From Wolbachia endosymbiont of Litomosoides sigmodontis (lineage in GTDB: Bacteria > Pseudomonadota > Alphaproteobacteria > Rickettsiales > Anaplasmataceae): 32,000 bases of DNA. The stretch covers positions 240,001 to 272,000 of the forward strand of contig NZ_CP046577.1 in NCBI RefSeq assembly GCF_013365435.1, read 5' to 3'. Position 1 is the first letter of the stretch. The number at the start of each line of letters is the position of its first letter. The notes below the pieces were generated by a model. The model was not told the origin of the DNA. It was given only the letters and a program-made list of their open reading frames with translations, and ran no database searches. The position numbers and the translations under genes are program-made. This document shows positions 13,665 to 31,902 of this stretch, one piece after another.

Positions 13665-13671
13665 ATTATGC

Positions 13672-14137: not shown

Positions 14138-16720
14138 ATGTTTTGGTCAACAAATGAAAGGATAATAAAATCCTTTAGAAAAATTGTTGAACAGATTAAT
14201 GTACTAGAGCCGGAAATGCAGAGTTTATCCGATGAGGAGCTTGCTGATAAAACTGAGAAGTTCAAACAAGAATTGAAAAATGGAAAAACATTAAATAATC
14301 TTCTTGTGCCTGCGTTTGCAGTTGTGCGTGAAGCATCTCGCAGATTTCTGAATATGAGACACTTTGATGTCCAACTAATTGGTGGAATGGTCCTTCATAA
14401 TGGTATGATATCAGAAATGAAAACAGGAGAGGGGAAGACGCTCGTTGCAACCTTAGCTGCATACCTAAATTCCTTAGAAGGAAAAGGGGTACATGTTGTG
14501 ACTGTTAATGACTACCTTGCAAAAAGAGATACAGAATGGATGAGAAGATTGTATAACTCTCTTGGAGTTTCTGTTGCATTTATCACGAATGATTTAACAG
14601 ATGAAGAAAGGAGAGAGGCTTATAGTGCAGATATCGTATATTCGACAAACAATGAGCTTGCTTTTGATTACTTGCGGGACAATATGAAATTTTCTCGAGA
14701 AGATATGGTTCAGAGAGGCTTCAATTATGTGATAGTAGATGAAGTAGATTCTATATTAATTGATGAAGCACGTACTCCACTTATTGTTTCTGGTCAAGTT
14801 GAGGAGAATAATCAAATATATAAGCACATAAACAAAATAGTTACTAAATTAATTGATTCTGATTATGAAGTAGATGAAAAGGGTAGGGCAGTATTTCTTA
14901 CTGAAGATGGTATTTCACGAGTAGAGGAACTACTCAGGTCATATAATATCATTTCTGAAAATTCCTCACTCTATGATGCTGGTAACATGATAATGACTCA
15001 TTATATAGACCAAGCATTACGTGCACATAAGCTATTCACTGCTGATAAAGATTATATAGTGAAGGATGGTAAAGTGGTAATTATTGATGAGTTTACTGGG
15101 CGTATGATGGAAGGCAGGAGATATTCTGATGGCCTTCATCAAGCACTTGAGGCAAAAGAGAATCTTGAAATTCAGCATGAAAACCAAACTTTAGCATCTG
15201 TCACGTTTCAGAATTACTTTCGTATGTACAGTAAGCTTTCTGGTATGACGGGAACAGCAGCAACAGAGGCAGAAGAATTTCGCGATATATATAGGCTAAA
15301 TGTAGTAAAAATTCCAACTAATGTACCTGTGCAGAGAATAGATGTTGATGATGAAATTTATGGTACAGAAAAAGAAAAATTTAATGCTGTGTTGAAGTTT
15401 ATAGAAGAATGTCATAAACGTCTTCAGCCTGTTCTTGTTGGTACGGTAAGCATTGAAAATTCTGAAAAACTTTCTGCACTTTTGCAAAATCATTCTCTTA
15501 GGCATTCAATATTGAACGCTCGTTATCACGAACAAGAAGCGTACATAATAGCACAAGCTGGAGTACCAGGTAATATCACCATAGCAACTAATATGGCAGG
15601 GCGTGGAACTGATATTCAGCTTGGAGGAAATGCTGAAATGATAGCAAAAGTGAAGCTGAAAAAGGTCAAAAATGCTGATGACAGAGAAAAAAAATACCAA
15701 GAAATAGTTGAGAAGGTAAAAAAGGATAAGGAAATTGCTATAAAAGCTGGCGGTTTATGTGTTATTGGAACTGAAAGACACGAAAGCAGGAGAATAGATG
15801 ATCAATTACGTGGCCGCTCTGGCCGTCAAGGTGATCCTGGGCTTTCTAAGTTCTTTTTATCGCTTGAAGATGATTTGATGAGAATATTTGGGTCTGATAG
15901 AATGAGAAGCTTTTTACAAAAAGTGGGACTAAAGAACGACGAAGCTATTCATCATCCATGGATCAATAGGGCACTAGAAAAAGCGCAGAAAAAAGTTGAA
16001 GCTAGAAACTATGGTGTGCGAAAATCCCTGCTTAAGTTTGATGACGTGATCAATAATCAACGCAAAGTTATTTTTGAACAGAGAAATCACATTTTAGGTA
16101 ATGAAGTCAATGATCTGTTTGAAGTGTATAGTGAAGTAAATGAGAGTGTGATAGAAAGTGTAGTACAAGGTGGTTATTACGAAGATTATGTTGAAGATAT
16201 AGCTAAGGAATTTTGTATGAGGTATGGTACAACATTTGATAAAAAAAACTTAGCGGAGTTTTTGAATAAACAAGAAATTTTGGATTATATGAATGGTAAG
16301 ATAAAAGAATTCTTTGCTGAGAAAGAGAAATATTTTAATAGTCAGCAAACTACGGATTTGTGGAATACTATAGTAAAGCAAGTGATGATTATGACACTTG
16401 ATCATTTATGGAGAGAACACCTTTCAATTTTAGAGAGCTTAAGGCAAAGCATAAGTTTACGTGCTATGGGGCAGAAGGACCCGCTGAATGAATTTAAACG
16501 TGAGGCTTTCTTGATGTTTGAGTCTATGCTTGAGAAGTGGAAGGAGCTTACCATTTACCGTCTAGCACACTTTAAGTTGGCAGATAGCCAAGAGGCAGAT
16601 GGTAGGTTCTGTCCTACTAGAAAAGACAATTTTCCGAAAGTCTCAAGAAATGATAAATGCCCTTGCAACTCGGGAAAAAAGTATAAACACTGCCACGGTA
16701 CGATTACTGTGGTGAATTAG
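14138..16720 (+). CDS. secA: preprotein translocase ATPase subunit SecA
   Basis: Whole-length SecA: [13 protein letters not shown] (Walker A), [19 protein letters not shown] (DEAD-like), [10 protein letters not shown], and the C-terminal zinc finger [14 protein letters not shown]. The start is uncertain: ATG 14138 ([13 protein letters not shown]) is conservative, while TTG 14120, ATG 14063 and TTG 14051 are in frame upstream. Confidence 0.95.
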
Positions 16721-16872
16721 TGACATTACTTGCTGCTTGCATATACTAATCTCTGTGTTTAATAAATTCTGTGGTTCCTCTTTTATTTTTTAGGAAATTT
16801 AAACTCTTTCTCTGATAATTTCATTAGTTTCTTGATTTATTTGATGCAATAGATATTTCAATTGCAGTTACA

Positions 16873-17061
16873 ATGAAAAGTACTGGTGCTGTAAGTCTTA
16901 TTGCTATTAAAGAATTTATTGCATTTGATAAAGACGATAAAGAGTTCACTTTAATTGTTGGAGCAATACTACTAACTGTAGCACTTCTGATAAACGAACC
17001 AGTTAGATATGTACTTCCTTTAATGTTAAATTACTTGCACAATAATTATTGCAAATTGTGA
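16873..17061 (+). CDS. hypothetical 62-aa ORF, doubtful
   Basis: This is the only ORF in the secA-to-IS spacer. It has one hydrophobic segment (LIVGAILLTVALLI), no visible RBS and no similarity I recognise. Confidence 0.15.
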   Translation: MKSTGAVSLIAIKEFIAFDKDDKEFTLIVGAILLTVALLINEPVRYVLPLMLNYLHNNYCKL

Positions 17062-17230
17062 ATTAGAATAAGAATGTTTCTATGAAAATTGCGATTAATG
17101 ATATCTATTTAGCGGAGTGGTATAATAAGATGAATAAAGTAGTATGATGAAAGTAATGATAGAGCAAAAGTAAGGTAATAAAATTAATCTTTTATGACTC
17201 TGCAAAATCCGGGGTGAAGAATAGCAAAAT

Positions 17231-18056
17231 TATACCAATTTCCCTTGATTTAAGAAAAGGACAGACAATGATAGAAAAGAAACTATGCTGAAGCAAGTGA
17301 AATAGCGAGGTAAAAATGGTATTGAAATTAAAATTATTGAATGGAAAAGCTGTGGAATCAGCGAAAGAAATGCTGAAGAAAGTGCGAAATAATGTATATG
17401 TTGCAAAAAATTAAGTGTTAAAGTTTAGAAGAGGGGGAAAATGCTGTAATTGTGGCAAAAAAGAAGCATAGTATAACAGCTGTAACTGTATGGATAAATT
17501 GTTTGCTTGGCTCTTAATATTGTAAAAAACTAAATTTGAATCAGAATTAATTTGAATAAGTTGGAGTATAGATGCAAGGAAATTCTAACGTTAAAGAAAT
17601 GAGAATAAGAGTCCAGGAAAAATTTGATTTAAATGTCAACAAGTCTATAGTATGCTGTGATATGCAAAAAATGAAGCTTTCGTATATTGCGCCAAGACTG
17701 ATTCACAATGAACAAGGTAATGGTAAACAATGAAGAGTTTAAAAAATTAATGAAACTAAAGTGCAGTTAATCCTAAAAGTAGAAAGAGTTTCAGCTTATT
17801 TACGCTTAATGTTAACACTTATTCACAATATTTAGGAATGCGAGAAAGTTTTTTGCATGGATTGTGCTAGTTGAAATAGGTTAAAAAACTCAAAAGTATC
17901 TAAAAATATCAGGATTATATAACTATTACTATGCTCATTTAAGGTCTTTCTTAATTGAGAGACTTTTTAATTGTATGTAAAACAGAACATTTTGCGTAAT
18001 AAAATTTATAATATAAATGTCACTTATTTGACCCACTACCAATAAAAATTGGTATC
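17231..18056 (+). mobile_element. IS630-family remnant, copy E (dead)
   Basis: The 5' end is TATACCAATTTCCCTTGATTTAAGAAAAGGACAGACAATG and the N-terminal remnant starts ATGGTATTGAAATTAAAATTATTGAATGG. It is collinear with the other copies through AAAACAGAACATTTTGCGTAAT to the 3' terminus AAAAATTGGTATCA. It is heavily deleted and full of stops. Confidence 0.8.
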
Positions 18057-18079
18057 ATTTCTTTAGTGATGATATTAGG

Positions 18080-18268
18080 CTTTTTCTTGTGTCCATACTC
18101 CAGTTTGCTCAGATTGATTCTGATTTAATGCAGTTAGTGCTGTTCTTGAGATGCAACATATTTTTGTTACGGCTATTATACTATACTTTTTGCTGCGATT
18201 ACAGCATTTAGTTTTTTTTGCAACATATGCGTATTTCACACTTTCTTCAGTATTTTCTTTCTGATTCT
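18080..18268 (-). repeat. Inverted partial internal/5' segment of the IS630-like element behind copy E
   Basis: 18145-18268 (GATGCAACATATTTTTGTTACGGCTATTATACTATAC...GCAACATATGCGTATTTCACACTTTCTTCAG) matches 5431-5560 and 7878-7990 in the same orientation. 18085-18130 matches 7735-7790. Confidence 0.7.
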
Positions 18269-18437
18269 AAGGTTGGCTCAGATGTTCAGTTAAACCATAT
18301 GAGAGGTATCATAATTTCGCTGTTTTTGGCTAATTCAGTGTAATTCTAGCTAGCGCTGAAGTTGTAAACACCTTTCGTTAATGTTAGTTTAATCTTTATT
18401 ATATATGATATAGCTAGTGAAAATTTTAACTAATCTA

Positions 18438-19198
18438 TGAATGATGATTATCTTTTTGAAAAAGGAAATAATAATAGTAAAAAAATAATGATGATAGAAG
18501 AGAATCTAAAAATGAAGGTCATCTAGATCAAAAAGAGCAATACGAAGAGAAAGATATAGTACAGTATGTTCAAACTATTTAAAAGCCTTTGCTTGGACGT
18601 TTTGAATCAAGTTGATGAAGGAATAGATGATCTGGATAGTTGGAAAGGACTATGCAAATAAAGCGAAGTATAGATAAGTTTATAGAATTTTAGTATAATC
18701 AGGTGGCATCTGAGGATATTGATGCAGAATTTGAGATTGCACAGTGTGCTTGTGATAAATCAGAGCCTATAATTAAAGAATCATGAAAAAGTGGAGAAAG
18801 CAAATGTATGAAGGAAGTATTAAGTAATGTGTTTGCTCAGTAACAAAAGAGCTAATAAATGTTAAGCATTTAAATTATGGATATGAGGCAGCGAATAATA
18901 GAGATGTTCATGAAATAAAGAAACGAATGAAGTCTTTAATTTAAGGAGGGTGTTGTTTTCAGTTATTGCTCATAGAATAGATCCGAGAAGAAGAGCAAGG
19001 GGAAAAACTGTTGGTAATAATGGAAGATAAGCTCGTATACGTGATGAAAAGGTAATTAGAGAAGATCTGGATGTGTTATTGAAAATGTTCTTAATTGCAG
19101 TTACTACTGTTGTGTGTGAAATTGCTAAGCTACTTCAGCGTGCTAGTAAATTAGAGACATCTTTTGTAAAACAAGTTGAAAAAAAAGTGAGGATATAG
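18438..19198 (+). pseudogene. unidentified decayed coding region (gene debris)
   Basis: The composition is coding-like and purine-rich, with open stretches of 30-55 codons (for example ARIRDEKVIREDLDVLLKMFLIAVTTVVCEIAKLLQRASKLETSFVKQVEKKVRI*) interrupted by many stops. There is no ORF of 60 aa or more, and I recognise no family. Confidence 0.25.
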
Positions 19199-19362
19199 AT
19201 TTACAACATGGTTTATCTATATATAACTCTGTTATCTGAGTAGGTTCTTTTTTTTTTTGATTATACGCTGAGTTTTTTCTTAAATAATAATTACATAAGA
19301 AATCGTTGTTATTGAGAGTTTAGTGAGCTTAAATTATTAGAATAGTAATGTTTATTTTTATA

Positions 19363-19391
19363 TTGACTATTGAGGTTTATTATTTTATAAC
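19363..19391 (+). promoter_or_regulatory. candidate sigma-70-type promoter for the rpsL (str) operon
   Basis: TTGACT (19363-19368), a 17-nt spacer, then TATAAC (19386-19391), about 40 nt upstream of the rpsL ATG. Chance matches to the -10 are common in AT-rich DNA. Confidence 0.35.
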
Positions 19392-19430
19392 TAGAACTTA
19401 AGTTATTTAATGAGCTTGGGTTTTTAATAT

Positions 19431-19805
19431 ATGCCTACGATAAATCAATTGGTACGTAAAGGCAGATTGAAATTGTCCTGTAAGAAGAAGGTGCCAGCTT
19501 TGGGGAAAAGCAACCCTCAAAGAAGAGGTGTTTGCACTAAAGTGTATACTACAACTCCTAGAAAGCCTAATTCAGCACTACGTAAAGTAGCTAGAGTAAG
19601 AGTTAGTGGGTATGGTGAAGTGACAGCTTATATACCTGGTGAAGGTCATAATTTACAAGAACACTCTGTTGTTTTGATACGTGGTGGACGAGTTAAAGAT
19701 TTACCAGGTGTACGTTATCACATAATAAGAGGTGCTTTTGATCTGCGTGGTGTGCAAAATCGCAAAAAGGCTCGTTCAAAATATGGTGTAAAGAAATCTG
19801 GTTAA
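19431..19805 (+). CDS. rpsL: 30S ribosomal protein S12
   Basis: [12 protein letters not shown]..., [15 protein letters not shown], and 124 aa in length. Confidence 0.97.
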
Positions 19806-19811
19806 AATTTT

Positions 19812-20291
19812 ATGTCTCGTCGGAATAAAGCAAAGAAGAGAAAAATAAGTCCTGATTCGCGTTACGGTAATGTTTTGCTGATGCGTCTCATTAATGTAAT
19901 CATGAAATGTGGTAAAAAGTCAATTGCAGAAAAAATTGTCTATAATGCTTTATCTTCAGCTGAAAAAGAGGTGAGTAGAAGTGGAGTGTCAATTTTTGAA
20001 ATAGCAGTGGAAAATGTTACGCCTTCTATAGAAGTGCGTTCCCGTCGTATTGGCGGTGCAACTTATCAAGTGCCTGTTGAAGTTAGAAAAGATAGAGCTA
20101 TTTCTTTGGCGTTGAGATGGATTGTTAAATCAGCTTCTGCTACGAGAAAAAAAAGTGGAAAGGGGTTTTTTAAGTGTTTGTGCTCTGAAATATTGGATGC
20201 ATATAATAAACGTGGTGGTGCATTTAAGATGTGTGAAGAAAAATATAAAATGGCTGAAGCTAATAAGGCTTTTTCTCATCTTCGTTTTTAA
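19812..20291 (+). CDS. rpsG: 30S ribosomal protein S7
   Basis: 159 aa with [34 protein letters not shown], located after rpsL. Confidence 0.97.
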
Positions 20292-20312
20292 TGTTAGCTA
20301 ATTGATAATAAT

Positions 20313-22379
20313 ATGAAAATTGGTATATCTAAATACAGAAACATAGGTATAATGGCTCATATAGATGCTGGTAAGACTACTACAACAGAGCGTATTTTAT
20401 TTTATACTGGTAAGCAAAATAGAATTGGTGAAGTGCATGATGGTGCAGCTTCTATGGATTGGATGGAGCAAGAAAAAGAACGTGGTATTACAATCACGTC
20501 TGCTGCAACAACTTGTTTTTGGAATAATTATAGAATCAATATAATAGATACTCCAGGGCATGTTGATTTTACTATTGAAGTTGAAAGGTCTTTAAGAGTC
20601 TTGGATGGTGCGGTTGCTGTATTTGATGGAGTTGCAGGAGTTGAACCTCAATCTGAAACTGTTTGGCGTCAAGCTGATAGATATAATGTTCCTCGTATCT
20701 GTTTTGTTAATAAAATGGATAGAATAGGAGCAGATTTTTATCGATGTGTTAATATGATAAAGAGTAAGCTTGGAGCAGTGCCTTTAATTATTCAACTGCC
20801 AATAGGAAGTGAAAAAGATTTTAATGGTATAATTGATCTAATTTCCATGAAAATCATTATATGGGAAGATGAGACATTAGGCGCTAAATTTTCTTATAAA
20901 GATATTCCTTTTGATTTATTTGACAAGGCTCAAGAGTATCGAAATCTTTTGTTAGATGCTGCTGCTGATATGGATGATGAAGCGATGAATACTTACTTTG
21001 AATCTAATGACTTGCCAGTAGATTTGCTAAAAAGATGTGTGAGAAGTGGAACTATTAAAGGAGCATTTGTTCCTGTATTATGTGGATCGGCGTTAAAAAA
21101 TAAGGGCATACAACCACTTTTAGACGGTATAGTTGATTTCTTGCCTTCTCCTGCTGATTTTGATGAAATTGTTGGAATTGATCCAAGGGATTCGGGAAAG
21201 AAGATTAAGGTTAAACCTTCAGAAAAAGAAAAATTTGTTGCTCTTGCATTTAAAGTGATGACAGATAAATTTGTGGGTAGCTTAACATTTATTCGTATTT
21301 ATTCTGGTAAGTTAAAATCTAAATCTACTGTGTTAAATGCTGGCAAAAATGAAATTGAGGGAATTGGTAGAATGTTGCTTATGCATGCGAATAATAGAGA
21401 AGATATAAATGAAGCTGAAGTTGGAGATATAGTTGCTTTAGTGGGATTGAAGAAAACAATCACTGGTGATACTTTATGTTCATCTGATTTTCCTATATTA
21501 TTAGAACGTATGGAATTTCCTGAGCCTGTTATTGAAATTGCTATAGAACCTAGAACTATTTCAGATCAGGAGAAATTGTGTATTGCTTTAAGCAAATTGG
21601 CTGCAGAAGATCCTTCTTTGAAAATGTCAGTGAATGCGGAAAGTGGTCAGACGATATTGAAAGGTATGGGCGAATTGCATCTTGAAATCGTTACTGATAG
21701 AATAAAACGTGAATTTAACGTTGATGTCAATATTGGTGCTCCTCAAGTTGCATATCGCGAAACTATTACTAAATCTGTTGAAATTGATTACATGCATAAA
21801 AAGCAATCAGGCGGTGCTGGTCAATTTGCTAAAGTAAAGATTTTGTTTGAACCTCTTGAGCCTGGTTCTGGATTTCAATTTGAAAGTAAAATTGTAGGTG
21901 GTGCAATTCCAAAAGAATATATTCCCAGTGTGCAAAATGCTCTGGAATTGGTAAAAGAAGGGGGTATAATTTCTGGCTTTCCAGTTATTGATTTTAAGGC
22001 TACTCTTATTGATGGTGCTTTTCACGAGGTTGATTCAAGTCCTTTGGCTTTTGAGTTGGCTGCTAAGGGTGCTTTTAAAGAAATGGCAAGTGAAGCTGGT
22101 CCGAAAATGTTAGAGCCTATAATGAAAGTTGAGATTATTACACCTGAAGAATATATGGGCGATATTATGGGTGATGTAAATAGTAGGAGGGGGCAAATTT
22201 CAAGTACAGAGACGCATAATAATAGCACTATAATTCTTGCTTTAGTACCTCTTGCAAATATGTTTGGTTATATAAATGCTTTGCGTTCTATATCTCAAGG
22301 AAGAGCTCAATATAGTATGCATTTTTCTTATTATGAACAAGTGCCACAGTATGTAGTCAATGAGTTAAAGTATAATTAA
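20313..22379 (+). CDS. fusA: translation elongation factor G
   Basis: 688 aa with [23 protein letters not shown] and NKMD. All five domains are recognisable and intact. Confidence 0.97.
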
Positions 22380-22392
22380 TGGCAACACAATT

Positions 22393-23477
22393 ATGACGAT
22401 AGCAGTAGAAACTACAGCGCAAGTAGTGGAAGCTTTTGGGAGGACGCCTGTTAATGTAGGGATGATAGGACGTGTGGGTCATGGAAAGATAATGTTAACA
22501 GCAGCGATAATAAAGTATTATGAAAATTTTATAGAGTACGATCAAATAAATAAGGTACTAGAAGAGAGGAAAAGAAGAATTACGATTGTAATGGCACATA
22601 TTGATTGCCTTGGGCTCATTATGATAGTGAGTACGGCGATGTTGATAGTGTCGGAAGTTGATGGGCCTATGCTGCAAATGAGAGAGTATATATTACTGGC
22701 GAGGCAAGTTGGTGTTGGGTATATTGTGGTATATATAAATAAAGCTGATGTATCTGATAATGATATGATAAGTTTGGTGAAGATGGGAGTGAAGCAATTG
22801 CTGAGTAAATATGAATTTTCAGTGATAATGGAATCTGTATTAAAAACATTAGAGAAGGATGGTGAGTATGGGAAGAAATTAGTCTCTAAATTGATAGAAA
22901 AGTTAGATGAGTATGTAAAAATTTCATCAAGGATTGTGAATTTACCATTCTTATTGCTAATTGAAGATGTATTTTTGATATCAGGACGTAGAATAGTAGT
23001 AACTGAGAGAATAAAAAAAAGAGAAATAATAGGTCTGAAAGCTGTACAGAAGACGACATTCACTAATGTGAAAGTGTTTAAAAAATTGTTAAAAAAAGGA
23101 AGTGCAGGATTAAATGTGAGGATATTGCTGAGAGGAACAAAGAGAGAGGAAGTAGAGAGAGGGCAAATATTAGCAAAACTAAGAACAATAATGCAGCACA
23201 GGAAATTCAAGGCAGAAGTTTACGTATTAAAGAAAGGAGAGGTGGGGAGGTATACACCATTTTTTATGAATTATCAGATACAATCTTATTTAAGGACGAC
23301 AGATGTAATGGGAAGTATAAGGTTGATAGAAGGGAAAGAGATAGCAATGTCTGGAGTAATGTAAGTGTAGAGATAGAATTGTAAATGTCGATAGCAATGA
23401 ATAAGAGGTTGCGCTTTGTAATAAGAGAAGGAGGTAGAACTGTTGATTATGGTATTGTTTCTGAAATTTTGGAGTAA
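22393..23477 (+). pseudogene. tuf: translation elongation factor Tu pseudogene
   Basis: EF-Tu homologue in the canonical fusA-tuf-rpsJ position.
- G1 reads GRVGHGKIML (canonical GHVDHGKTTL).
- Switch II reads DCLGL (canonical DCPGH), with roughly 20 codons missing around it.
- There are further in-frame gaps.
- A 1-nt deletion near 23355 gives a stop at 23362-23364.
- The continuation frame has TAA at 23382-23384.
- The ancestral tail MSIAMNKRLRFVIREGGRTVDYGIVSEILE* runs to 23477. Confidence 0.85.
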
Positions 23478-23482
23478 GTACA

Positions 23483-23848
23483 GTGGCTGAAGTGGAGCAA
23501 GTTGCATATATTATAAGTAGAGCTTTTGATTGTTTAAAATTAGAGAAGTATGTTAAGGAATTTGTTCATGGATTTAAAGATAAGTTTAAGCATTCTGGTG
23601 CAGAGTTGTCAGGTCCAGTGGCGTTGCGAAGAAGGAATTCTAAATTTGATTTTAATAGATCTCCTCATGTTGATAAAAAATCTCGTGAGCAATTTGAACA
23701 GAGAACTTCTGGGCGGCTAATTGTTTTACATGGTCTTACCCCTGCTATGATGCAGATGCTTGGAGATTCATCTTTCTTTCCTCCTCCTCCTCCTGGAGTA
23801 GAAATTTATTTAAAGATTAAGAAAATCAAGTTTAAAAAAGAGAAATGA
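23483..23848 (+). CDS. rpsJ: 30S ribosomal protein S10 (divergent, with polyproline tract and Lys-rich tail)
   Basis: Contains RAFDCLKLEKYV, SGPVALRRR and RSPHVDKKSREQFEQRT. The start is GTG at 23483 or 23492. The stop overlaps the rplC start (ATGA). Confidence 0.85.
   Translation: MAEVEQVAYIISRAFDCLKLEKYVKEFVHGFKDKFKHSGAELSGPVALRRRNSKFDFNRSPHVDKKSREQFEQRTSGRLIVLHGLTPAMMQMLGDSSFFPPPPPGVEIYLKIKKIKFKKEK
23780..23794 (+). repeat. (CCT)5 trinucleotide repeat inside rpsJ encoding PPPPP
   Basis: TTC CCT CCT CCT CCT CCT GGA, in frame as codons 100-104 of the 23483 ORF. Confidence 0.95.
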
Positions 23849-24570
23849 AGAGAATAAATTTGCTAAGAAGAATTGGTTTGTTAATGACGAATATCGGTCA
23901 TACTGCTATATATTCTAATAGTGGTCGTGTAGCTGTGACTTTACTGCATCTCAGTGAAACTTATATTGTTGATGTAAAAAGGCAAGATAAGTGTGGCTAT
24001 AATTCGGTTATTTTGGGTGCTGGGGACTTTAAAAATATTGCAAAACCACAATTAGAATATTTAAAGAAAATGGGAATACGTAATAGATGTAAATTGTATG
24101 AGAGTAGATTAAGTGATCTTTCTGGGATAGAATGTGGTAAAAGAGTTGGTGTTAATCATTTTGTGGTTGGTCAATATCTTGATATTACGAGTTATTCTAT
24201 AGGTAAGGGATTTGCTGGTGTAATGAAGCGACATAATTTTTGTGGACTCAGGGCATCTCATGGTGTTTCCATTGCTCATAGATCACAAGGTTCTACTGGT
24301 CAATGTCAGGACCCTGGTAGAGTATTTAAAGGAAAGAAAATGGCCGGTCATTTAGGTGATAAAAGAGTGACTGTGCAGAATATGAGAATATTATCTATTG
24401 ATCATGAAAATAGTATAATTGTTGTAAAGGGCAATAATGTTCCTGGATTCAGAAATTCTTATATTTTTGTTAGAGATGCAATTAAAAAGCCTTTACATAA
24501 AAATGTTCCTTTCCCGGTAGGTCTGCTATTAAATGCAAGTGATAATAATGTTAGTACTTTGGTAAGTTAG
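23845..24570 (+). CDS. rplC: 50S ribosomal protein L3
   Basis: GKGFAGVMKRHNFCGLRASHG and FKGKKMAGHLG, in conserved operon position. Confidence 0.93.
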   Translation: MKRINLLRRIGLLMTNIGHTAIYSNSGRVAVTLLHLSETYIVDVKRQDKCGYNSVILGAGDFKNIAKPQLEYLKKMGIRNRCKLYESRLSDLSGIECGKRVGVNHFVVGQYLDITSYSIGKGFAGVMKRHNFCGLRASHGVSIAHRSQGSTGQCQDPGRVFKGKKMAGHLGDKRVTVQNMRILSIDHENSIIVVKGNNVPGFRNSYIFVRDAIKKPLHKNVPFPVGLLLNASDNNVSTLVS

Positions 24571-24572
24571 TT

Positions 24573-25187
24573 ATGGAGCATAAATTAGTGAATTTATCTA
24601 ATAATGATGTAGGTACTATCCAGCTTAATCCTTTAATATTTTCTGTTAAGCAAAAATTGAGTATTTTGCATGATATAGTTAAATGGCAATTAGCAAAGAG
24701 AAGGGCTGGTACTCATAAAGCAAAAGGCATTAGTGATGTTTCTGGTACAACAGCCAAGCCTTATAGTCAAAAACGTACTGGTAGGGCAAGACAAGGAAGC
24801 TTGCGATCTCCTCAGTTTAGAGGTGGTGGAGTTATTTTCGGTCCTGTTGTTAGGAATCATGCTTATTCTCTTAATAAAAAAGTACGTAAATTTGGTTTAA
24901 AAGTTGCTTTATCTTTTAAATATTTAAATAATCAAATAGTTATTCTTGATAGTTTAAGTATTGATGTAAGGAAAACGTCTGAAGTGTGTCAATATATTCA
25001 AAATTTTAAATTTTCTTCCTTTTTAATAGTTGGCGATTATGGAGATAATTTGCTACGTGCTGTTAAAAATCTGCACTATGTAAACTTGATCAAGCCTATC
25101 GGGTTGAATGTTTTTGATATATTAAATCATGAATGCATAATGTTAACAAATGATGCTTTAAGGTATCTTGAAGGTAGATTATTATGA
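24573..25187 (+). CDS. rplD: 50S ribosomal protein L4
   Basis: QKRTGRARQGSLRSPQFRGGGVIFGP, 204 aa. Confidence 0.95.
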   Translation: MEHKLVNLSNNDVGTIQLNPLIFSVKQKLSILHDIVKWQLAKRRAGTHKAKGISDVSGTTAKPYSQKRTGRARQGSLRSPQFRGGGVIFGPVVRNHAYSLNKKVRKFGLKVALSFKYLNNQIVILDSLSIDVRKTSEVCQYIQNFKFSSFLIVGDYGDNLLRAVKNLHYVNLIKPIGLNVFDILNHECIMLTNDALRYLEGRLL

Positions 25188-25471
25188 TTAAATATGATAA
25201 TATAATAAAGTGTCCTATAATTACAGAAAAGGCTTCCTTTTTAAGGGAGAAATTTAATAAATATTCTTTATATGTTTTTTTGAATGTGAATAAATTTAAA
25301 ATAAAATTAACAATAGAATCTCTATTTAATGTTAAAGTTTCTTCTATAAACGTTATTAGAGTTAAGCCTAAGTATAGGCGCTTTAGGGGTGTAATTGGTT
25401 ATGAAAAACAAAAAAAGAAAGTATATTTTTCCTTGATGAATGGTCAAAAGTTGGATATAATGAGTGTTTAA
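25184..25471 (+). CDS. rplW: 50S ribosomal protein L23
   Basis: 95 aa with PIITEKAS, positioned between rplD and rplB, with a 4-nt overlap with rplD. Confidence 0.9.
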
Positions 25472-25472
25472 T

Positions 25473-26297
25473 ATGGGTATAAAATTTCTTAATCCTATCA
25501 CTCCATCATCTCGTGGAACTGTATTAATAAGCAAGGTAGGTTTATCAAAAAGCAAGCCAGAAAAGTCCCTTGTGTTTGGTAAGAAATCTAGTGGTGGAAG
25601 GAATAATAATGGTAGGATAACAACTTGTCATAAGGGTGGTGGTCATAAAAAGAAGTATAGGATTATAGATTTCAAACGCAATAGAAGTGATCAGGGTGTA
25701 ATTGAAAGGATAGAGTATGATCCAAATAGAAGTGGATTTTTAGCATTGGTGTCGTATAAAAATGATGATATCAAGTCTTACATATTAGCTCCACAAGACG
25801 TAAAGCCTGGTGATGTTGTGATATCAGGAAATGATGTTGATATATTGCCAGGTAATTGTTTACCATTGAGGTATATACCTGTTGGTTCTTTTGTTCATGG
25901 TATTGAGCTAAAGCCAGGTAACGGTGCTGTGATTGCTCGAGCTGCTGGTTGTTATGCGCAAATTGTTGGTCGTGATGGTAATTATGTTTTATTGCGGTTA
26001 AGGTCTGGTCAAATTAGGCTAATTTTATCTTCTTGTAAAGCTACTATTGGTGTAGTATCTAATCCTGATCGTAAAAATAGAAAATTAGGTAAAGCTGGAA
26101 GGAGTAGGTGGCTGGGGATTAGACCTACTGTTCGTGGAGTTGCTATGAATCCTGTAGATCATCCTCACGGTGGCGGAGAAGGAAAGACTTCTGGTGGGCG
26201 CCATCCTGTTACTCCTTGGGGTATTGCAACAAAAGGAAAAAAAACTCGGAAGAAAAATAAGTTTAGTGATAAGTATATAAAGAAATTGAAAGGTTAG
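25473..26297 (+). CDS. rplB: 50S ribosomal protein L2
   Basis: [22 protein letters not shown] and [15 protein letters not shown] prefer ATG 25473 (MGIKFLNP) to the GTG at 25464 in the ORF track. Confidence 0.95.
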
Positions 26298-26300
26298 TTT

Positions 26301-26585
26301 ATGAGTAGATCTGCATGGAAACCACCTTTTTGTCATCCTTCTGTGCTAAGGTTGGTAAACAGAGCTTTAAAGCAAGGCTCTATTAATAAGGTAATAAAAA
26401 TTCATTCTAGGGCTTCTGTAATTCTCCCTAATTGTTTGGGTTTAAAATTTGCTGTTTATAATGGTAAGGATTACATCCCTGTCAGTATTAATGATCAGAA
26501 TATGATAGGCCATAAGTTTGGTGAGTTTTCACCTACTCGTAAATTTGCTGGGCATAGTGGTGATAAAAAGGCGACAAGAAGATAA
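26301..26585 (+). CDS. rpsS: 30S ribosomal protein S19
   Basis: [12 protein letters not shown] and [16 protein letters not shown]. Confidence 0.95.
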
Positions 26586-26590
26586 TTGAT

Positions 26591-26941
26591 ATGAAGAGCA
26601 TGGATGTAATAATTAAAGCTAGTTCTAGAATTTTAAAATCTACTCCTCGCAAATTAAATTTGGTTGCTGATTTAGTGCGTAGTAAAAAAGTTTCTTTTGC
26701 TGCTGTGCAATTAAGATTTTGTGAAAAAAAGGCTGCTGGCCTTATAGGAAAGGTATTAAATTCTGCAATTGCCAATGCTCAATATAATTATGGATTGGAT
26801 ATTGATAATTTGTATATAAAAGAGATTTTAATAGGTAAGTCATTTACTTTACGTAGAGTATATCCAAAAGCTATGGGTAGAGCTAGTAGAGTTAGTAAGC
26901 ATTATAGTAATATAACTATAAAATTAGGGCAAATAGTATGA
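26591..26941 (+). CDS. rplV: 50S ribosomal protein L22
   Basis: 116 aa with [18 protein letters not shown], in conserved operon position. Confidence 0.93.
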
Positions 26942-26978
26942 TTTGTAAGAGTAAAAATTAGTAAAGAAAGTGTAAAAT

Positions 26979-27599
26979 ATGGGGCAAAAGGTTAATCCTA
27001 TAGGATTCAGGTTAAAAATAAATGCTAATACCTGGGATTCTATTTGGTATGCTGGTAAAGATTACAGGGAGAAATTGCATCAGGACTTATCTATTCGCAG
27101 TTACATAAATGAGTCTTTTAAACATGCCGGTCTTTCTAAAATAATTATAGAGCGCAAAGTTGATTTGGTGTCTGTAACGATACATTCTTCTAGACCTGGG
27201 GTAGTCATAGGTAAAAAAGGCTTGGATATTGAAAAGGTGAAACAAAAAATAGCTGAAAGAGTGAAAAACAGTGTGGAAGTGAATGTAATGGGGGTTAAAA
27301 GGCCTGAGATAGATGCAGCTTTGATATCAAATAGCATTGCACAGCAGTTAGAAAAAAGGGTTTCATTTAGAAGGGCAATGAAAAAGGCTATTCAAAGTTG
27401 TTTAAGAATGGGAGGTGGTGGCATTAAAGTAGGTTGTTCTGGGCGTCTTGGTGGAGCTGAGATAGCTCGTACTGAATGGTATAAAGAAGGTCGTTTGCCA
27501 TTGCATACTTTGCGTGCTAATATAGATTATGCTTTTTGTGAAGCGAAGACTATATATGGTATTATAGGAGTTAAGGTTTGGGTTTATATTGTTAATTAA
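26979..27599 (+). CDS. rpsC: 30S ribosomal protein S3
   Basis: [12 protein letters not shown], a KH-domain GKKGLDIEK and [26 protein letters not shown]. Confidence 0.96.
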
Positions 27600-27610
27600 G
27601 GTGTATTAAA

Positions 27611-28024
27611 ATGTTTGTACCCAAGAAGAGTAAATATAGAAAGGTGTTTAAAGGACGGATTAAGGGTAATACAAAAGGTGGTAACACACTTTCTTTTGGA
27701 AATTATGGCTTAAAAACTATAGAAGCAGGTAGAGTTCAGTCTAAGCATATTGAGACTGTAAGGCGTGTGATATCTAGAACATTGAAACGTTCTGGCAAAA
27801 TATGGGTGAGAATTTTTCCTGATATCCCTGTTAGTAAAAAGCCAACAGATGTGCGAATGGGTAAGGGAAAGGGTAATGTTGAATTTTGGGTATTTAAAGC
27901 TAAGCCTGGTAGGGTATTATTTGAGATTAGTAATGATGTCCCCATGCATTTAGCAAAGTTGGCGCTTGAGAAGGCAATAGCTAAGCTTCCTGTAAAATGT
28001 AAATTTATATCTAATTATAGTTAA
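27611..28024 (+). CDS. rplP: 50S ribosomal protein L16
   Basis: [16 protein letters not shown] and [14 protein letters not shown]. Confidence 0.96.
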
Positions 28025-28240
28025 GTGGGGTTTATAGTGGATATAGCTGATATTAGATCAAAATCCTCACAAGAATTACATGAAATTCTTGTGAATTTGA
28101 GAAAGGAGTTTGTTAATTTGATTTTTCAAAAAAAGTTAGGGCAGTGTAATAATATTTCTCGTTTTAGCTTGATAAGGAAGAGTATAGCTCGTATTTTAAC
28201 TGTGTTAAATGAAAGAAGGATAGAGGAAAAGAATGCCTAA
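28025..28240 (+). CDS. rpmC: 50S ribosomal protein L29
   Basis: IRSKSSQELHEILVNLRKEFVNLIFQ. The start is GTG at 28025 or 28037. Confidence 0.85.
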   Translation: MGFIVDIADIRSKSSQELHEILVNLRKEFVNLIFQKKLGQCNNISRFSLIRKSIARILTVLNERRIEEKNA

Positions 28241-28466
28241 GAAGGTTTTTTGTGGTGTTATAACTAAAGCTGAGTGTAATAAAACTGTGAAGGTTTCAGT
28301 ATTACGTGTGTATAAAAATAAACTGTACAGGAAAGTTATAAAAAGGTATAAGAAGTACACAGCGCATGATGAAAATAATAGCTGCAAACAAGGGGATAAG
28401 GTTTTTATACAAGAGCATAGGCCAATTTCTGCTACTAAAAAATGGATTATTATTCGAGTGGAATAA
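28233..28466 (+). CDS. rpsQ: 30S ribosomal protein S17
   Basis: GVITKAECNKTVKV and YTAHDENNSCKQGDKVFIQEHRPISATKKW. Confidence 0.93.
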   Translation: MPKKVFCGVITKAECNKTVKVSVLRVYKNKLYRKVIKRYKKYTAHDENNSCKQGDKVFIQEHRPISATKKWIIIRVE

Positions 28467-28475
28467 GTTATTTAT

Positions 28476-28835
28476 ATGATTCAAAAGAATACATTATTAG
28501 AAGTAGCTGATAATTCTGGTGCGCGTGAAGTCATCTGCGTTGGTTTATTAGGTGGTAGAAAATCTGCATCTATAGGTAATACAATTATTGTATCTACTAG
28601 GTCAGTTAACCCAAAGGGGAAAGTTGAAAAGGGGAAAGTGTATAGGGCGGTTATTGTTAGGGTAAAGAATCGTATTAGAAAATCTGATAATTCTGTAATC
28701 TGTTTTTCTAGTAATGCTGTAGTTTTGGTTAATGATCAAGGTGAACCACTTGGTACTCGAGTATTTGGCCCGATAAAGAAGTTACCTTCTGGTTTTTTTA
28801 TGAAGATAATGTCATTAGCTGTTGAGGTTTTGTAG
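28476..28835 (+). CDS. rplN: 50S ribosomal protein L14
   Basis: [16 protein letters not shown] and [11 protein letters not shown]. Confidence 0.96.
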
Positions 28836-29152
28836 TGAGTGCAAAAATAAGAAGTGGTGATGACGTTATAGTTTTAACTGGTAGAGATAGAGGTAAAATT
28901 GGTAAAGTAATCAAAATTGTAACATGTAGTGCTAAAAAAAAGGCAGTTATTTCTGGAGTAAATCTGTGCAAGAAACATGCTAAGCCAAAAGCTGGTGGTA
29001 GTGGTAGTATAGTAAATAAAGAATTGGCTATTGATATATCTAACATTGCAATATTGGACCCTAAATATAAAGCTCCAACCAGAGTGGGATTTAAGATTAT
29101 AGATGGTAAAAAGGTACGTTTTGCAAAAGTTTCTGGGGAAGTAATAGACTAG
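28835..29152 (+). CDS. rplX: 50S ribosomal protein L24
   Basis: GTG start overlapping the rplN stop by 1 nt. Contains [22 protein letters not shown]. Confidence 0.93.
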
Positions 29153-29158
29153 GTTAGT

Positions 29159-29692
29159 ATGTTTAAAGAATTGTACAGAGATAGTGTAGTAAAATCCTTA
29201 AAGAATAAATTCAGCTATGACAATATAATGCAAGTGCCTAAGCTTGTCAAGGTGTGTATTAATATGGGTATTGGAGATGCTGCTACAGATAGTAAAGCAA
29301 TAAATGAACCACTTGATGATTTATATTTAATTGCAGGGCAAAAACCTGTATCAACGTTTGCGAAGAAGTCTATTTCTGGTTTCAAGATAAGGAAAGGTGC
29401 CATAGTAGGTTGTAAAGTAACTTTACGTAGAGATAAAATGTATGAATTTTTGGAAAGGTTAATATATGTTGCTTTACCGAGAGAAAAAGATTTTAGAGGA
29501 TTTAGTGTGAACCAATTTGATGGTAATGGTAATTTATCTTTTGGTATAAAGGAGCATATCTCATTTTTGGAAATAGATTATAATAAAATAAGTAAAATTA
29601 GAGGTATGGACATCAATATTGTAACAAGTGCGGCTAGTGATAAGGAAGCAAAGGAATTATTGCTAGCTTTTAAATTTCCCTTTTTTGATTAA
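29159..29692 (+). CDS. rplE: 50S ribosomal protein L5
   Basis: [16 protein letters not shown] and [10 protein letters not shown], 177 aa. Confidence 0.96.
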
Positions 29693-29709
29693 TTTAAGAG
29701 AAGAAGTAT

Positions 29710-30018
29710 ATGGCAAAAAAATCTGTGATACAGAGAAATCTTCGTAGGATAAAATTATGTGATCAATATAGAGGAAAAAGAGAAAGATTGAAGTCTATAA
29801 TAAATAATAAGAATATGACTATTAGCGAGAGATTTGCAGCTCAAAATAAGTTAATTAAAGAATTACCTAGGGATTCTTCTAAGATTAGAATTAGAAATAG
29901 ATGTGCTTTAACTGGAAGACCAAGAGGGGTGTATAGAAAATTTGGTTTATGTAGAATTGTTTTACGTGATTTGTGTTCTTTTGGAAAAATTCCAGGAGTT
30001 ACAAAGTCTAGTTGGTAG
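29710..30018 (+). CDS. rpsN: 30S ribosomal protein S14 (long form)
   Basis: [27 protein letters not shown] and terminal ...KSSW. Confidence 0.95.
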
Positions 30019-30039
30019 ATATAATATAGGGAGTGTATT

Positions 30040-30435: not shown

Positions 30436-30451
30436 GTAATAGGAGAAATTT

Positions 30452-30997: not shown

Positions 30998-31002
30998 TTA
31001 AG

Positions 31003-31374: not shown

Positions 31375-31386
31375 AAGGTTTTTAAT

Positions 31387-31899: not shown

Positions 31900-31902
31900 T
31901 GT

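What the first reader, a model, noticed from the sequence alone, without database searches (positions are those of the whole stretch)
22393..23477. The EF-Tu gene in the canonical fusA-tuf-rpsJ slot is a dead relic that still keeps a 323-codon open frame
What the sequence shows. A 1085-bp EF-Tu homologue sits 13 nt after the fusA stop and 5 nt before rpsJ.

Lost catalytic features, compared with the canonical EF-Tu sequence:
- The P-loop GHVDHGKTTL reads GRVGHGKIML, so the Mg-ligating Thr is lost.
- RGITI reads RRITI.
- Switch II DCPGHADY reads DCLGLIM, with roughly 20 codons missing around it, so the catalytic His is lost.
- GRGTVVTGR reads GRRIVVTER.
- About 8 codons are missing in domain II.

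Still-recognisable blocks: NKAD, PFLLLIEDVF, LLRGTKREEVERGQ, RTTDV.

Lesions near the 3' end:
- A 1-nt deletion near 23355 shifts the frame and gives a stop at 23362-23364.
- The continuation frame carries TAA at 23382-23384.
- The ancestral C-terminus RFVIREGGRTV..SEILE* remains readable to 23477.

Inference.
- A functional tuf must exist elsewhere. From established knowledge, Anaplasmataceae often carry a second tuf in the tRNA-tuf-secE-nusG cluster.
- It is odd that 323 codons stay stop-free after this much missense decay. One explanation is that continued translation of this spacer ORF protects the fusA-to-S10 polycistronic mRNA from Rho-dependent polarity.
- The alternatives are a very recent release from gene conversion between two tuf copies, or a neofunctionalised non-GTPase protein.
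Basis: partly seen in the sequence, partly recalled or inferred. Interest (0 to 1): 0.7.

Follow-up and report, generated by a model that had tools for sequence, protein, structure and literature searches.

The report
Dead EF-Tu gene kept translatable
In the Wolbachia symbiont of the filarial worm Litomosoides sigmodontis, one of the two EF-Tu genes has lost its function and its protein sequence drifts freely, yet its reading frame has stayed open far longer than chance allows, probably because ribosomes must keep translating through it to express the essential ribosomal-protein genes downstream.

Summary
The window comes from Wolbachia wLsig (1,045,802-bp chromosome). Positions 22393-23477 hold the fusA-adjacent tuf1 copy. 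Its P-loop Thr, switch-II His and G5 motif are destroyed, 108 nt are deleted, and there is one 1-nt deletion and one CAA>TAA stop near the 3' end.

- **When it decayed.** The sister strain wLbra and wBm keep an intact tuf1 in the same synteny, so the decay is specific to wLsig and postdates the split from wLbra.
- **Second copy.** An intact tuf2 (carA-tuf2-secE-nusG) is inferred from accession adjacency. I could not fetch it.
- **Neutral amino-acid drift.** Missense and synonymous changes on the wLsig branch fit random placement: 94 and 29 observed against 89.7 and 29.4 expected.
- **The frame is protected.** The 323-codon ORF has no nonsense changes where about 4 are expected. All six multi-nucleotide deletions are multiples of three. 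There is no frameshift where about 8 are expected from the neighbouring neutral spacer. The combined probability is about 1e-3 to 1e-5.

So the frame, not the protein, has been under selection. The best explanation is that translation through the relic is needed within the str-S10 ribosomal operon, either to prevent polarity or to maintain translational coupling. That mechanism is inferred, not shown. Recent release from gene conversion and neofunctionalisation are both disfavoured.

The parts
20313..22379 (+). fusA (EF-G), intact, 688 aa. It is the upstream neighbour and its stop lies 13 nt before the relic's ATG.
   Evidence: Pfam GTP_EFTU/EFG_III/IV/C. Identical to QKX02815.1 of wLsig. omega is 0.14 against wLbra.
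22393..23477 (+). The whole tuf1 relic (psi-tuf1), 1085 nt. It is orthologous to the intact tuf1 of wLbra (L091:9128-10321) and wBm (L082:6001-7200).
   Evidence: Synteny secA..rpsL-rpsG-fusA-tuf1-rpsJ. DNA alignment. Closest to wLbra tuf1: 15.4% divergence against 17.3% to tuf2.
22393..23364 (+). The 323-codon open frame of the relic (ATG to TAA). Amino-acid sequence is unconstrained, but the frame has been kept open.
   Evidence: Random-placement test: synonymous 29 against 29.4 expected, missense 94 against 89.7, nonsense 0 against 3.96.
22466..22495 (+). Degraded P-loop (G1): GRVGHGKIML in place of GHVDHGKTTL.
   Evidence: Translation and alignment to wBm/wLbra EF-Tu.
22593..22628 (+). Switch-II region holding three in-frame deletion junctions: 36 nt lost at 22593/22594 between an 11-nt direct repeat GCACATGTTGA, 15 nt at 22620/22621, and 15 nt at 22627/22628. 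DCPGHADY now reads DCLGLIM, so the catalytic His is lost.
   Evidence: (junction coordinates and flanks).
22816..22860 (+). Two further in-frame deletion junctions at the end of domain I: 15 nt at 22816/22817 between TTCCAG repeats, and 3 nt at 22859/22860. The G5 motif SALKAL now reads SVLKTL.
23025..23026 (+). In-frame 24-nt (8-codon) deletion junction in domain II.
23356..23364 (+). 1-nt deletion (between 23356 and 23357) and the resulting frame-1 stop TAA at 23362-23364. This is the only frameshifting indel in the relic and lies at 90% of its length.
23382..23384 (+). Ancestral-frame nonsense change CAA>TAA.
23385..23477 (+). Residual ORF of 30 sense codons in the ancestral frame (MSIAMNKRLRFVIREGGRTVDYGIVSEILE*). 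Its ATG arose from GTG and sits directly after the TAA, 20 nt after the main ORF's stop. It ends 5 nt before rpsJ, so it could act as a re-initiation relay. That role is speculative.
   Evidence: Its 3' end holds the rpsJ Shine-Dalgarno GGAG at 23471-23474.
23483..23848 (+). rpsJ (S10), intact. It is the first gene of the downstream S10-spc ribosomal-protein gene string, which continues to the window end.
   Evidence: Pfam Ribosomal_S10. Gene list. omega is 0.03 against wLbra.

Best explanation
The segment 22393-23477 is the tuf1 copy of Wolbachia wLsig. This is the copy in the rpsL-rpsG-fusA-tuf1-rpsJ string.

History:
- After wLsig split from the L. brasiliensis strain wLbra, this copy became redundant to tuf2 and lost EF-Tu function.
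- Since then its codons have changed at the neutral rate under strong GC-to-AT mutation pressure.

What is unusual:
- Mutations that would have stopped translation (nonsense changes, frameshifts) were removed by selection over the first 90% of the gene.
- The only two such lesions lie in the last 120 nt.

Most likely reason:
- The relic sits inside one tightly packed transcription and translation unit. No promoter-like or terminator-like signal lies between fusA and rpsJ.
- Ribosomes have to keep travelling through it so that the mRNA for the more than 20 downstream ribosomal-protein genes is neither terminated (Rho/NusG polarity) nor degraded, and so that ribosomes are delivered to rpsJ.
- The product itself is probably a useless, unstable polypeptide.

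Shown: the decay, its lineage and age, the neutral amino-acid drift, and the deficit of frame-breaking lesions.
Inferred: the existence of an intact tuf2, co-transcription with rpsJ, actual translation of the ORF, and the polarity/coupling mechanism.

My sub-confidences are 0.95 that it is a dead EF-Tu, about 0.8 that the frame is kept by selection, and about 0.5 that the reason is anti-polarity or coupling.
For: Source and lineage:
- The source genome is wLsig.
- tuf1 is intact in the same synteny in wLbra (397 aa) and wBm.

Neutral decay:
- There are 132 lineage-specific substitutions over 1082 sites. 86 of them are G>A or C>T. They fall at codon positions 1, 2 and 3 as 48, 52 and 29.
- Placement of missense and synonymous changes is exactly as random placement predicts.
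- Neighbouring genes are under purifying selection (omega about 0.13, dS about 0.22). The relic has therefore been neutral for essentially the whole branch.

Deficit of frame-breaking lesions:
- No stops occur in the 323 codons where 3.2-4.0 are expected (Poisson P = 0.019, Monte Carlo 0.009).
- The indels are 36, 15, 15, 15, 3 and 24 nt, all multiples of three, plus a single 1-nt deletion at the 3' end.
- In the neutral secA-rpsL spacer of the same two genomes, only 8 of 39 indels are multiples of three (Fisher P = 0.0004).
- That spacer has 21 frame-shifting indels per 310 mismatches. This predicts about 8 frameshifts in the relic, and the combined P(0) is about 1e-5.
- A control pseudogene 4 kb upstream (18441-18975) has 8 indels, none a multiple of three, and many stops.

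Operon context:
- Gene spacing is 13 nt and 5 nt. No terminator-like site lies between fusA and rpsJ, and promoter-like hits are no more frequent than in shuffles.
- rpsJ directly follows a tuf gene in wBm, wLbra and both arrangements of wDcau.
- Rho and NusG are reported in all surveyed Wolbachia (PMC7397232). wLsig NusG exists.
Against: - There are no expression data, so neither transcription through the relic nor its translation is shown.
- The relic RNA is C-poor and G-rich (C 8%, G 26.5%). This is the opposite of classical Rho-utilisation sites, so Rho may not be the agent of polarity.
- rpsJ has its own GGAG Shine-Dalgarno sequence, so it may not need coupling.
- Short direct repeats in tuf are in phase 45-67% of the time. 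If the deletions are pure slippage events, six out of six in frame is only P of about 0.02-0.09. The stop deficit alone is P of about 0.02-0.04. The strongest number (1e-5) relies on transferring the indel rate of an AT-rich spacer to a coding-derived sequence.
- This is a single locus in a single genome, from a PacBio CCS-only assembly.
- The intact tuf2 of wLsig was not seen directly (look-ups failed).
Confidence: 0.55

Rival explanations
1. It is an ordinary neutral pseudogene. The long ORF and the in-frame deletions are luck combined with mutational mechanics: purine-rich sequence, few stop-prone codons, and slippage between in-phase repeats.
For: - Missense and synonymous changes are at neutral proportions.
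- Several deletions are flanked by in-phase direct repeats.
- 45-67% of short repeats in tuf are in phase.
- The stop deficit taken alone is only P of about 0.02-0.04.
Against: - There are no 1-2-nt indels in 1072 nt, although these make up over half of the indels in the adjacent neutral spacer. About 8 frameshifting indels are expected.
- A same-age control pseudogene is riddled with frameshifts.
- Both frame-breaking lesions lie in the last 10% of the gene.
- The combined probability is about 1e-3 to 1e-5.
Confidence: 0.13
2. Selection keeps the frame open for a reason other than downstream expression. For example, truncated or frameshifted EF-Tu fragments might be toxic (binding EF-Ts or ribosomes, or loading proteostasis), whereas the full-length inert protein is harmless.
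For: The deficit of nonsense and frameshift lesions with free missense change fits this reading as well as it fits polarity.
Against: - The P-loop, switch II and 22 codons of the G domain are already destroyed. Fragments are therefore unlikely to bind EF-Ts or the ribosome.
- A frameshifted tail is no more harmful than the present junk sequence.
- This reading gives no reason why lesions in the last 10% would be tolerated.
Confidence: 0.1
3. The ORF encodes a neofunctionalised, non-GTPase EF-Tu-like protein that is still useful.
For: - It is a long ORF with a retained start codon.
- Pfam still recognises domains I and III.
- Some blocks are unchanged, for example ILLRGTKREEVERGQILAK.
Against: - The nonsynonymous-to-synonymous ratio on the branch equals the neutral expectation (94:29 against 89.7:29.4).
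- Divergence is fairly uniform along the gene, at 6-23% per 90-nt window.
- An unchanged run of 19 residues is expected by chance at this divergence. This is my own estimate: (0.71)^19 x ~300 start positions = ~0.35. It is not a tool result.
- Core beta-strands are deleted.
- The C-terminal third of domain III is cut off by the frameshift.
Confidence: 0.06
4. The copy was kept intact by gene conversion from tuf2 until very recently and has only just started to decay, or patches are still being repaired by conversion.
For: wBm tuf1 and tuf2 differ by only 0.5%, so conversion does act in some Wolbachia.
Against: - In wLbra the two copies differ by 8.8%, as much as wLbra differs from wBm, so conversion stopped long ago in this lineage.
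- The relic carries about 12% own-branch substitutions, equal to the full neutral divergence since the split.
- At sites that distinguish tuf1 from tuf2, the relic shows no convincing long tuf2-type tracts. Most apparent tuf2-type matches are ancestral states.
Confidence: 0.03
5. It is an assembly artefact, for example a decayed nuclear Wolbachia insertion from the worm genome or a poorly polished region stitched into the bacterial chromosome.
For: The wLsig assembly rests on PacBio CCS reads only. No independent assembly carrying this ORF was found.
Against: - The junctions with intact fusA and rpsJ are exact and identical in spacing to wLbra.
- Sequencing errors create frameshifts. They do not create 130 base substitutions with a GC-to-AT bias, nor six clean in-frame deletions.
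- A nuclear insert would not keep its frame.
Confidence: 0.02

Closest known systems
Duplicated tuf genes of Proteobacteria (tufA after fusA, tufB before secE-nusG), with concerted evolution and differential loss
   Same: The two slots are the same. Two copies are the rule in Wolbachia, Ehrlichia and Anaplasma (PMC1780047). wBm shows concerted evolution, with 0.5% divergence between its copies. Losing one copy is a known outcome (own knowledge: Lathe and Bork 2001).
   Different: Here the lost copy was not deleted. It persists at nearly full length with an open frame. Concerted evolution had already ceased in the Litomosoides Wolbachia lineage, where the two wLbra copies are 8.8% apart.
Tuf-mediated rearrangement in Rickettsiales (the Rickettsia prowazekii chimeric fus / tuf-S10 arrangement; own knowledge, Syvanen et al. 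1996)
   Same: Wolbachia wDcau shows the analogous swap, with fusA-tuf-secE-nusG in one place and ...tuf-rpsJ in the other. rpsJ always sits immediately after a tuf gene.
   Different: wLsig keeps the ancestral order and both slots. One copy decayed in place instead of being removed by recombination.
Gene 'neutralisation' before pseudogenisation in Wolbachia (ruvA; Badawi et al. 2014, PMC4224334)
   Same: A redundant gene evolves at omega of about 1 while still an intact ORF.
   Different: Neutralisation is described there as a brief, recent stage. Here about 12% of sites have changed, six deletions have accumulated, and the catalytic motifs are gone. The open frame therefore cannot be a transient leftover.
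Polarity of nonsense mutations in bacterial operons (Rho/NusG-dependent termination or decay of untranslated mRNA) and translational coupling
   Same: The pattern predicted by polarity is seen. Frame-breaking lesions are absent except close to the next start codon. The genes are tightly packed, and Rho and NusG are present in Wolbachia.
   Different: Polarity is classically a laboratory phenotype of mutants. Here it is invoked as a long-term evolutionary constraint on a dead gene. The RNA lacks C-rich rut-like composition, and nothing has been measured.
Transcribed pseudogenes in reduced genomes (for example Mycobacterium leprae read-through transcription, PMC2753549, title and abstract only; Wolbachia wOo gene expression, PMC3514676, title and abstract only)
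   Same: A pseudogene lies inside an operon and is presumably transcribed by read-through.
   Different: My searches found no report of a decayed pseudogene under selection to stay open. This one shows a statistical signature of such selection.

Membership tests
Functional EF-Tu (translational GTPase) | G1 P-loop GxxxxGK[ST] (GHVDHGKT) | tested here: not met
   It reads GRVGHGKI. The Mg-ligating Thr is replaced by Ile, His by Arg and Asp by Gly.
Functional EF-Tu (translational GTPase) | G3 / switch II DxxGH with the catalytic His | tested here: not met
   DCPGHADYVKNM now reads DCLGLIM. The His is replaced by Leu, and 22 codons around the motif are deleted.
Functional EF-Tu (translational GTPase) | G4 NKxD | tested here: met
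   NKAD is retained.
Functional EF-Tu (translational GTPase) | Three complete domains in one uninterrupted ORF of about 390 aa | tested here: not met
   The ORF has 323 codons. Pfam domain 2 is below its gathering score. Domain 3 is matched only over profile positions 2-49 of 106. A frameshift and a nonsense codon precede the C-terminus.
Functional EF-Tu (translational GTPase) | Strong purifying selection on the protein | tested here: not met
   The branch-specific missense-to-synonymous ratio equals the neutral expectation. Intact tuf copies have omega of about 0.08-0.09.
Pseudogene of a redundant paralogue | Orthologous position to an intact gene in close relatives | tested here: met
   wLbra L091 and wBm L082 have the same gene string with an intact tuf1.
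Pseudogene of a redundant paralogue | Frame-breaking lesions and loss of essential motifs | tested here: met
   A 1-nt deletion at 23356/7, TAA at 23382-84, and loss of motifs G1, G3 and G5.
Pseudogene of a redundant paralogue | An intact paralogue in the same genome | tested here: inconclusive
   The locus could not be fetched. The accession gap NusG QKX03087.1 to CarA QKX03090.1 matches the wLbra layout CarA, EF-Tu, SecE, NusG. All six other filarial Wolbachia examined have two copies.
Pseudogene of a redundant paralogue | Lesions of all kinds accumulate at neutral rates | tested here: not met
   Substitutions are neutral, but nonsense changes and frameshifts are strongly under-represented in the first 1072 nt.
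Translated spacer ORF constrained by operon polarity or coupling | Deficit of nonsense and frameshift lesions with unconstrained amino-acid sequence | tested here: met
   Control pseudogene.
Translated spacer ORF constrained by operon polarity or coupling | Co-transcription with downstream essential genes, with no internal promoter or terminator | tested here: inconclusive
   Consensus scans find no terminator-like site and only two weak 9/12 promoter-like hits on the + strand within the relic (22482-22511, 23003-23030), with overall counts no higher than in shuffles. Such scans are not evidence of function.
Translated spacer ORF constrained by operon polarity or coupling | The ORF is actually translated | not testable with these tools
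   This needs Ribo-seq or proteomics of L. sigmodontis / wLsig.
Translated spacer ORF constrained by operon polarity or coupling | Rho-utilisation-like (C-rich, G-poor) RNA that would be exposed by a premature stop | tested here: not met
   The relic RNA has 8.2% C and 26.5% G. Rho and NusG are present in Wolbachia generally.
Neofunctionalised EF-Tu-like pseudo-GTPase | Purifying selection on a subset of residues or domains | tested here: not met
   omega is about 1 and divergence is roughly uniform along the gene.

The most novel reading that the evidence does not exclude
psi-tuf1 of wLsig is a 'ribosome conduit'. It is a dead gene whose only remaining selected property is that it can be translated from end to end. 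This keeps the str and S10 ribosomal-protein operons coupled in an unculturable endosymbiont. If so, operon polarity acts as a long-term evolutionary force that freezes pseudogenes as open frames. ORF integrity would then be an unreliable criterion for gene function in reduced genomes.
Probability: 0.45. Interest if true: 0.7.

Novelty: new variant of a known kind. Interest (0 to 1): 0.55.

Why it matters
- **Annotation.** A 323-codon ORF with EF-Tu Pfam hits can be called as a protein, and one gene-calling pipeline did so. Yet it is not an EF-Tu. Open frames in reduced genomes are not proof of function.
- **Evolution.** It is a clean natural example in which selection on the act of translation can be separated from selection on the product: omega is about 1, but there are no stops or frameshifts. 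If general, position within an operon would become a determinant of how pseudogenes decay and how long they persist.
- **Biology of filarial Wolbachia, which are drug targets.** wLsig appears to run on a single tuf gene. Its S10 operon may depend on read-through from the str operon. Both points can be tested with existing L. sigmodontis laboratory material.

Tried and rejected
- **Fetching the wLsig tuf2 locus.** Exact-protein look-ups with wLsig NusG (P0195) and CarA (P0197) returned 'not on record'. A chimeric query (EF-G fragment + RplA + CarA) found wLsig CarA but no RplA hits. I fell back on accession adjacency.
- **Reaching wLbra through identical proteins.** The first rpsL look-up failed because I included the stop codon. 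The repeat and the S10 look-up returned only wLsig. wLbra was finally reached through its own S7.
- **Independent copies of the relic.** The 323-aa product occurs on one contig only, and no Logan assemblies of wLsig were seen.
- **Gene-conversion patches.** None was convincing at sites that distinguish tuf1 from tuf2.
- **Promoter, terminator, Rfam and tRNA scans.** Nothing informative turned up.
- **RNA structure at the relic's 3' end and rpsJ start.** It is not more stable than shuffles (z = +1.0 and +0.4). A small hairpin over the rpsJ SD is shared with wLbra, but only because the sequence is identical.
- **Antisense 222-aa ORF (22542-23210).** It has no Pfam hit and is probably a by-product of the purine-rich sense strand.
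- **Literature searches.** Searches for a described wLsig tuf pseudogene, or for polarity-constrained pseudogenes, found nothing specific. Lefoulon et al. 2020 do not mention tuf or pseudogenes in the main text.
- **Structure prediction.** I did not run it, because an alignment-driven model would look like EF-Tu whether or not the protein folds.
Full report
**Source and context.** The 323-aa ORF occurs on a single public contig of 1,045,802 bp, OY365737.1. This length is exactly that of the wLsig chromosome, the Wolbachia endosymbiont of Litomosoides sigmodontis (CP046577; Lefoulon et al. 2020, PMC8116671). The window's EF-G, S7 and S12 are identical to wLsig proteins QKX02815.1, QKX02814.1 and QKX02813.1. 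The local gene string is secA, then a gene-poor spacer, then rpsL-rpsG-fusA-[relic]-rpsJ-rplC-rplD-rplW-rplB and so on.

**The observation.**
- Pfam still detects the GTP_EFTU domain (5.6e-15) and domain 3 (5.5e-11). Domain 2 falls below its gathering score.
- A DNA alignment with intact Wolbachia tuf genes shows six deletions of 36, 15, 15, 15, 3 and 24 nt. It also shows one 1-nt deletion between 23356 and 23357, and a CAA>TAA change at 23382-23384.
- The TAA at 23382 is followed directly by an ATG (formerly GTG). This opens a residual ORF of 30 sense codons that runs to the ancestral stop, 5 nt before rpsJ.

**Is it unusual among relatives?**
- Two tuf copies are the rule in Wolbachia. wBm has tuf1 in fusA-tuf1-rpsJ and tuf2 in carA-tuf2-secE-nusG-rplKAJL-rpoBC.
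- wOo, wDimm, wCtub and wDcau also have two copies. The literature says the same for Wolbachia, Ehrlichia and Anaplasma (PMC1780047).
- The sister strain wLbra has an intact 397-aa tuf1 in the same secA..fusA-tuf1-rpsJ synteny (L091:9128-10321). It also has an intact tuf2 (L088:6531-7703).
- Of 60+ alphaproteobacterial fusA loci fetched, only the wLsig copy lacks GHVDHGKT and DCPGH.
- The decay is therefore specific to wLsig and younger than the wLsig/wLbra split.

**A second copy in wLsig.** I could not fetch this locus. The evidence is indirect.
- wLsig NusG is QKX03087.1 and CarA is QKX03090.1. This leaves exactly two protein accessions between them.
- In wLbra the corresponding series is CarA NUY39314, EF-Tu NUY39315, SecE, NusG NUY39317.
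- This supports an annotated, intact tuf2 in wLsig, but it is an inference.

**How the relic has evolved.** I polarised changes with wLbra tuf1 and wBm tuf1.
- The wLsig branch carries about 130 substitutions in 1082 aligned sites. 86 of them are G>A or C>T.
- They fall at codon positions 1, 2 and 3 as 48, 52 and 29. The wLbra branch has 35 changes, 26 of them at third positions.
- I placed the observed numbers of each mutation type at random on the ancestral sequence. This predicts 29.4 synonymous, 89.7 missense and 3.96 nonsense changes in the part that is now the ORF. The observed numbers are 29, 94 and 0.
- Amino-acid change is therefore fully unconstrained (omega about 1), while nonsense changes are missing (Poisson P = 0.019, Monte Carlo 0.009).
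- The result is not due to a lower C>T rate in CA context. With a codon-position-specific rate the expectation falls to about 3.2 (P of about 0.04).
- Neighbouring genes show dS of about 0.22 and omega of about 0.13 between wLsig and wLbra. The relic has therefore been neutral for essentially the whole time since the split.

**Indels.**
- In the ORF part, all six indels are multiples of three. The only frameshift lies at 90% of the gene length.
- The neutral secA-rpsL spacer of the same two genomes has 39 indels, of which only 8 are multiples of three and 21 are 1-2 nt. Fisher P is 0.0004.
- Restricted to well-aligned blocks, the spacer has 21 frame-shifting indels per 310 mismatches. This predicts about 8.3 frameshifts for the relic's 123 substitutions. 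Together with the stops, the expected number of frame-breaking events is about 12 and the observed number is 0 (P of about 1e-5).
- A control pseudogene 4 kb upstream (18441-18975, homologous to a 158-aa ORF of wLbra) has eight indels, none a multiple of three, and many stops.
- One caveat applies. Several deletions lie between in-phase direct repeats, and 45-67% of short repeats in tuf are in phase. The 'six of six' figure alone may therefore be worth only P of about 0.02-0.09. The absence of small indels is not affected by this.

**Interpretation.** The frame has been protected while the protein has not. That rules out a working or neofunctionalised protein as the object of selection and points to translation itself.
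- The relic is wedged between fusA (13 nt) and rpsJ (5 nt) with no terminator-like site, and promoter-like hits are no more frequent than in shuffles.
- In every Wolbachia arrangement seen, including the tuf-mediated swap in wDcau, rpsJ directly follows a tuf gene.
- Rho and NusG are reported in all surveyed Wolbachia (PMC7397232).
- The simplest model follows. A premature stop early in the relic would uncouple transcription from translation, or expose AU-rich RNA, and would lower expression of the long ribosomal-protein string downstream.
- Stops within about 120 nt of rpsJ are tolerated. The TAA-ATG junction at 23382-23387 might even relay ribosomes onward.
- Against a strictly Rho-based version, the RNA is very C-poor and rpsJ has its own GGAG.
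- No significant RNA structure was found at the junction.

**Rejected alternatives.**
- Recent release from gene conversion conflicts with the 8.8% divergence between the two wLbra copies and with the relic's 12% own-branch divergence. It also conflicts with the lack of convincing tuf2-type tracts.
- An assembly artefact is unlikely. Errors create frameshifts rather than in-frame deletions and biased substitutions, and the assembly pipeline was Canu on PacBio CCS reads with no protein-guided correction.

**Novelty.** That one tuf copy is a pseudogene is probably implicit in the GenBank annotation, because no protein accession exists for it. It is not discussed in the genome paper, and my searches found no report of it. 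My searches also found no described case of a pseudogene whose frame, but not its sequence, is conserved. The nearest concept is the transient 'neutralisation' stage of ruvA in Wolbachia (PMC4224334). I rate this a new variant of a known kind, with moderate interest. It rests on one locus, and the mechanism is untested.

Noticed in passing
L091:9128-10321 vs L088:6531-7703 (wLbra); L082:6001-7200 vs L086:6001-7173 (wBm): The two intact tuf copies of wLbra differ by 8.8% at the DNA level, mostly at synonymous sites. The two copies of wBm differ by 0.5%. Concerted evolution of tuf seems to have stopped in the Litomosoides Wolbachia lineage, which may be what allowed one copy to decay in wLsig.
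   Followed up: partly
L094 and L093 (wDcau, CP046580.1): In wDcau the two identical tuf genes have swapped downstream partners. One locus is rpsL-rpsG-fusA-tuf-secE-nusG-rplKAJL-rpoBC and the other is fmt...tuf-rpsJ-rplC. This is the Rickettsia-like chimeric arrangement, but with both tuf copies kept. About 2 kb between fmt and tuf has no called gene, so carA may be lost or decayed there.
   Followed up: partly
window 18441-18975: This is the decayed homologue of a 158-aa hypothetical ORF of wLbra (L091:5253-5729). It has eight indels, none a multiple of three, and many stops. I used it as a control pseudogene. Whether the wLbra ORF is a real gene is unknown.
   Followed up: partly
window 4000-8000, 9350-10100, 11800-14050, 16720-19430: These are long stretches without ORFs of 90 aa or more in a genome of 32% G+C. 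They are probably further pseudogene debris. No tRNA or Rfam family is found anywhere in the 32 kb.
   Followed up: no
window 22542-23210 (- strand): A 222-codon antisense ORF runs across the relic. It has no Pfam hit and is most likely a by-product of the purine-rich, T-poor-in-frame sense strand.
   Followed up: partly
L082:7186-7200 (wBm): wBm tuf1 has lost the ancestral TAA (GAGTAA became GAGTGGGTATAG). It reads two codons further (…SEILEWV*), and its stop codon ends on the first base of the rpsJ start. This is another sign of tight tuf-rpsJ coupling.
   Followed up: no
window 23452-23481; L091 equivalent: A small hairpin (GUAUU..UUUCUG-AAAU-UUUGGA..GUAC) covers the rpsJ Shine-Dalgarno GGAG. 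It is identical in wLsig and wLbra. The folding energy of the region is not better than that of shuffles, so its significance is doubtful.
   Followed up: partly
window 14000-32000: GC skew is very strong and positive (+0.2 to +0.45) across the ribosomal-protein region. The relic's sense strand has only 8% C. The 86 G>A and C>T changes show how fast G and C are lost once selection is lifted.
   Followed up: partly
L048:8123-9284 (Bradyrhizobium sp. TZ2, CP170752.1): The tuf gene after fusA gives two adjoining tblastn segments that meet at 8769/8770. This suggests a frameshift or a sequencing error in that record.
   Followed up: no
window 23483 vs 23492: The rpsJ start is called differently by different annotations. 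One uses GTG at 23483 (121 aa) and PGAP uses a start 9 nt downstream (118 aa, QKX03320.1). The out-of-series accession suggests that the gene was added or corrected after the first annotation.
   Followed up: no
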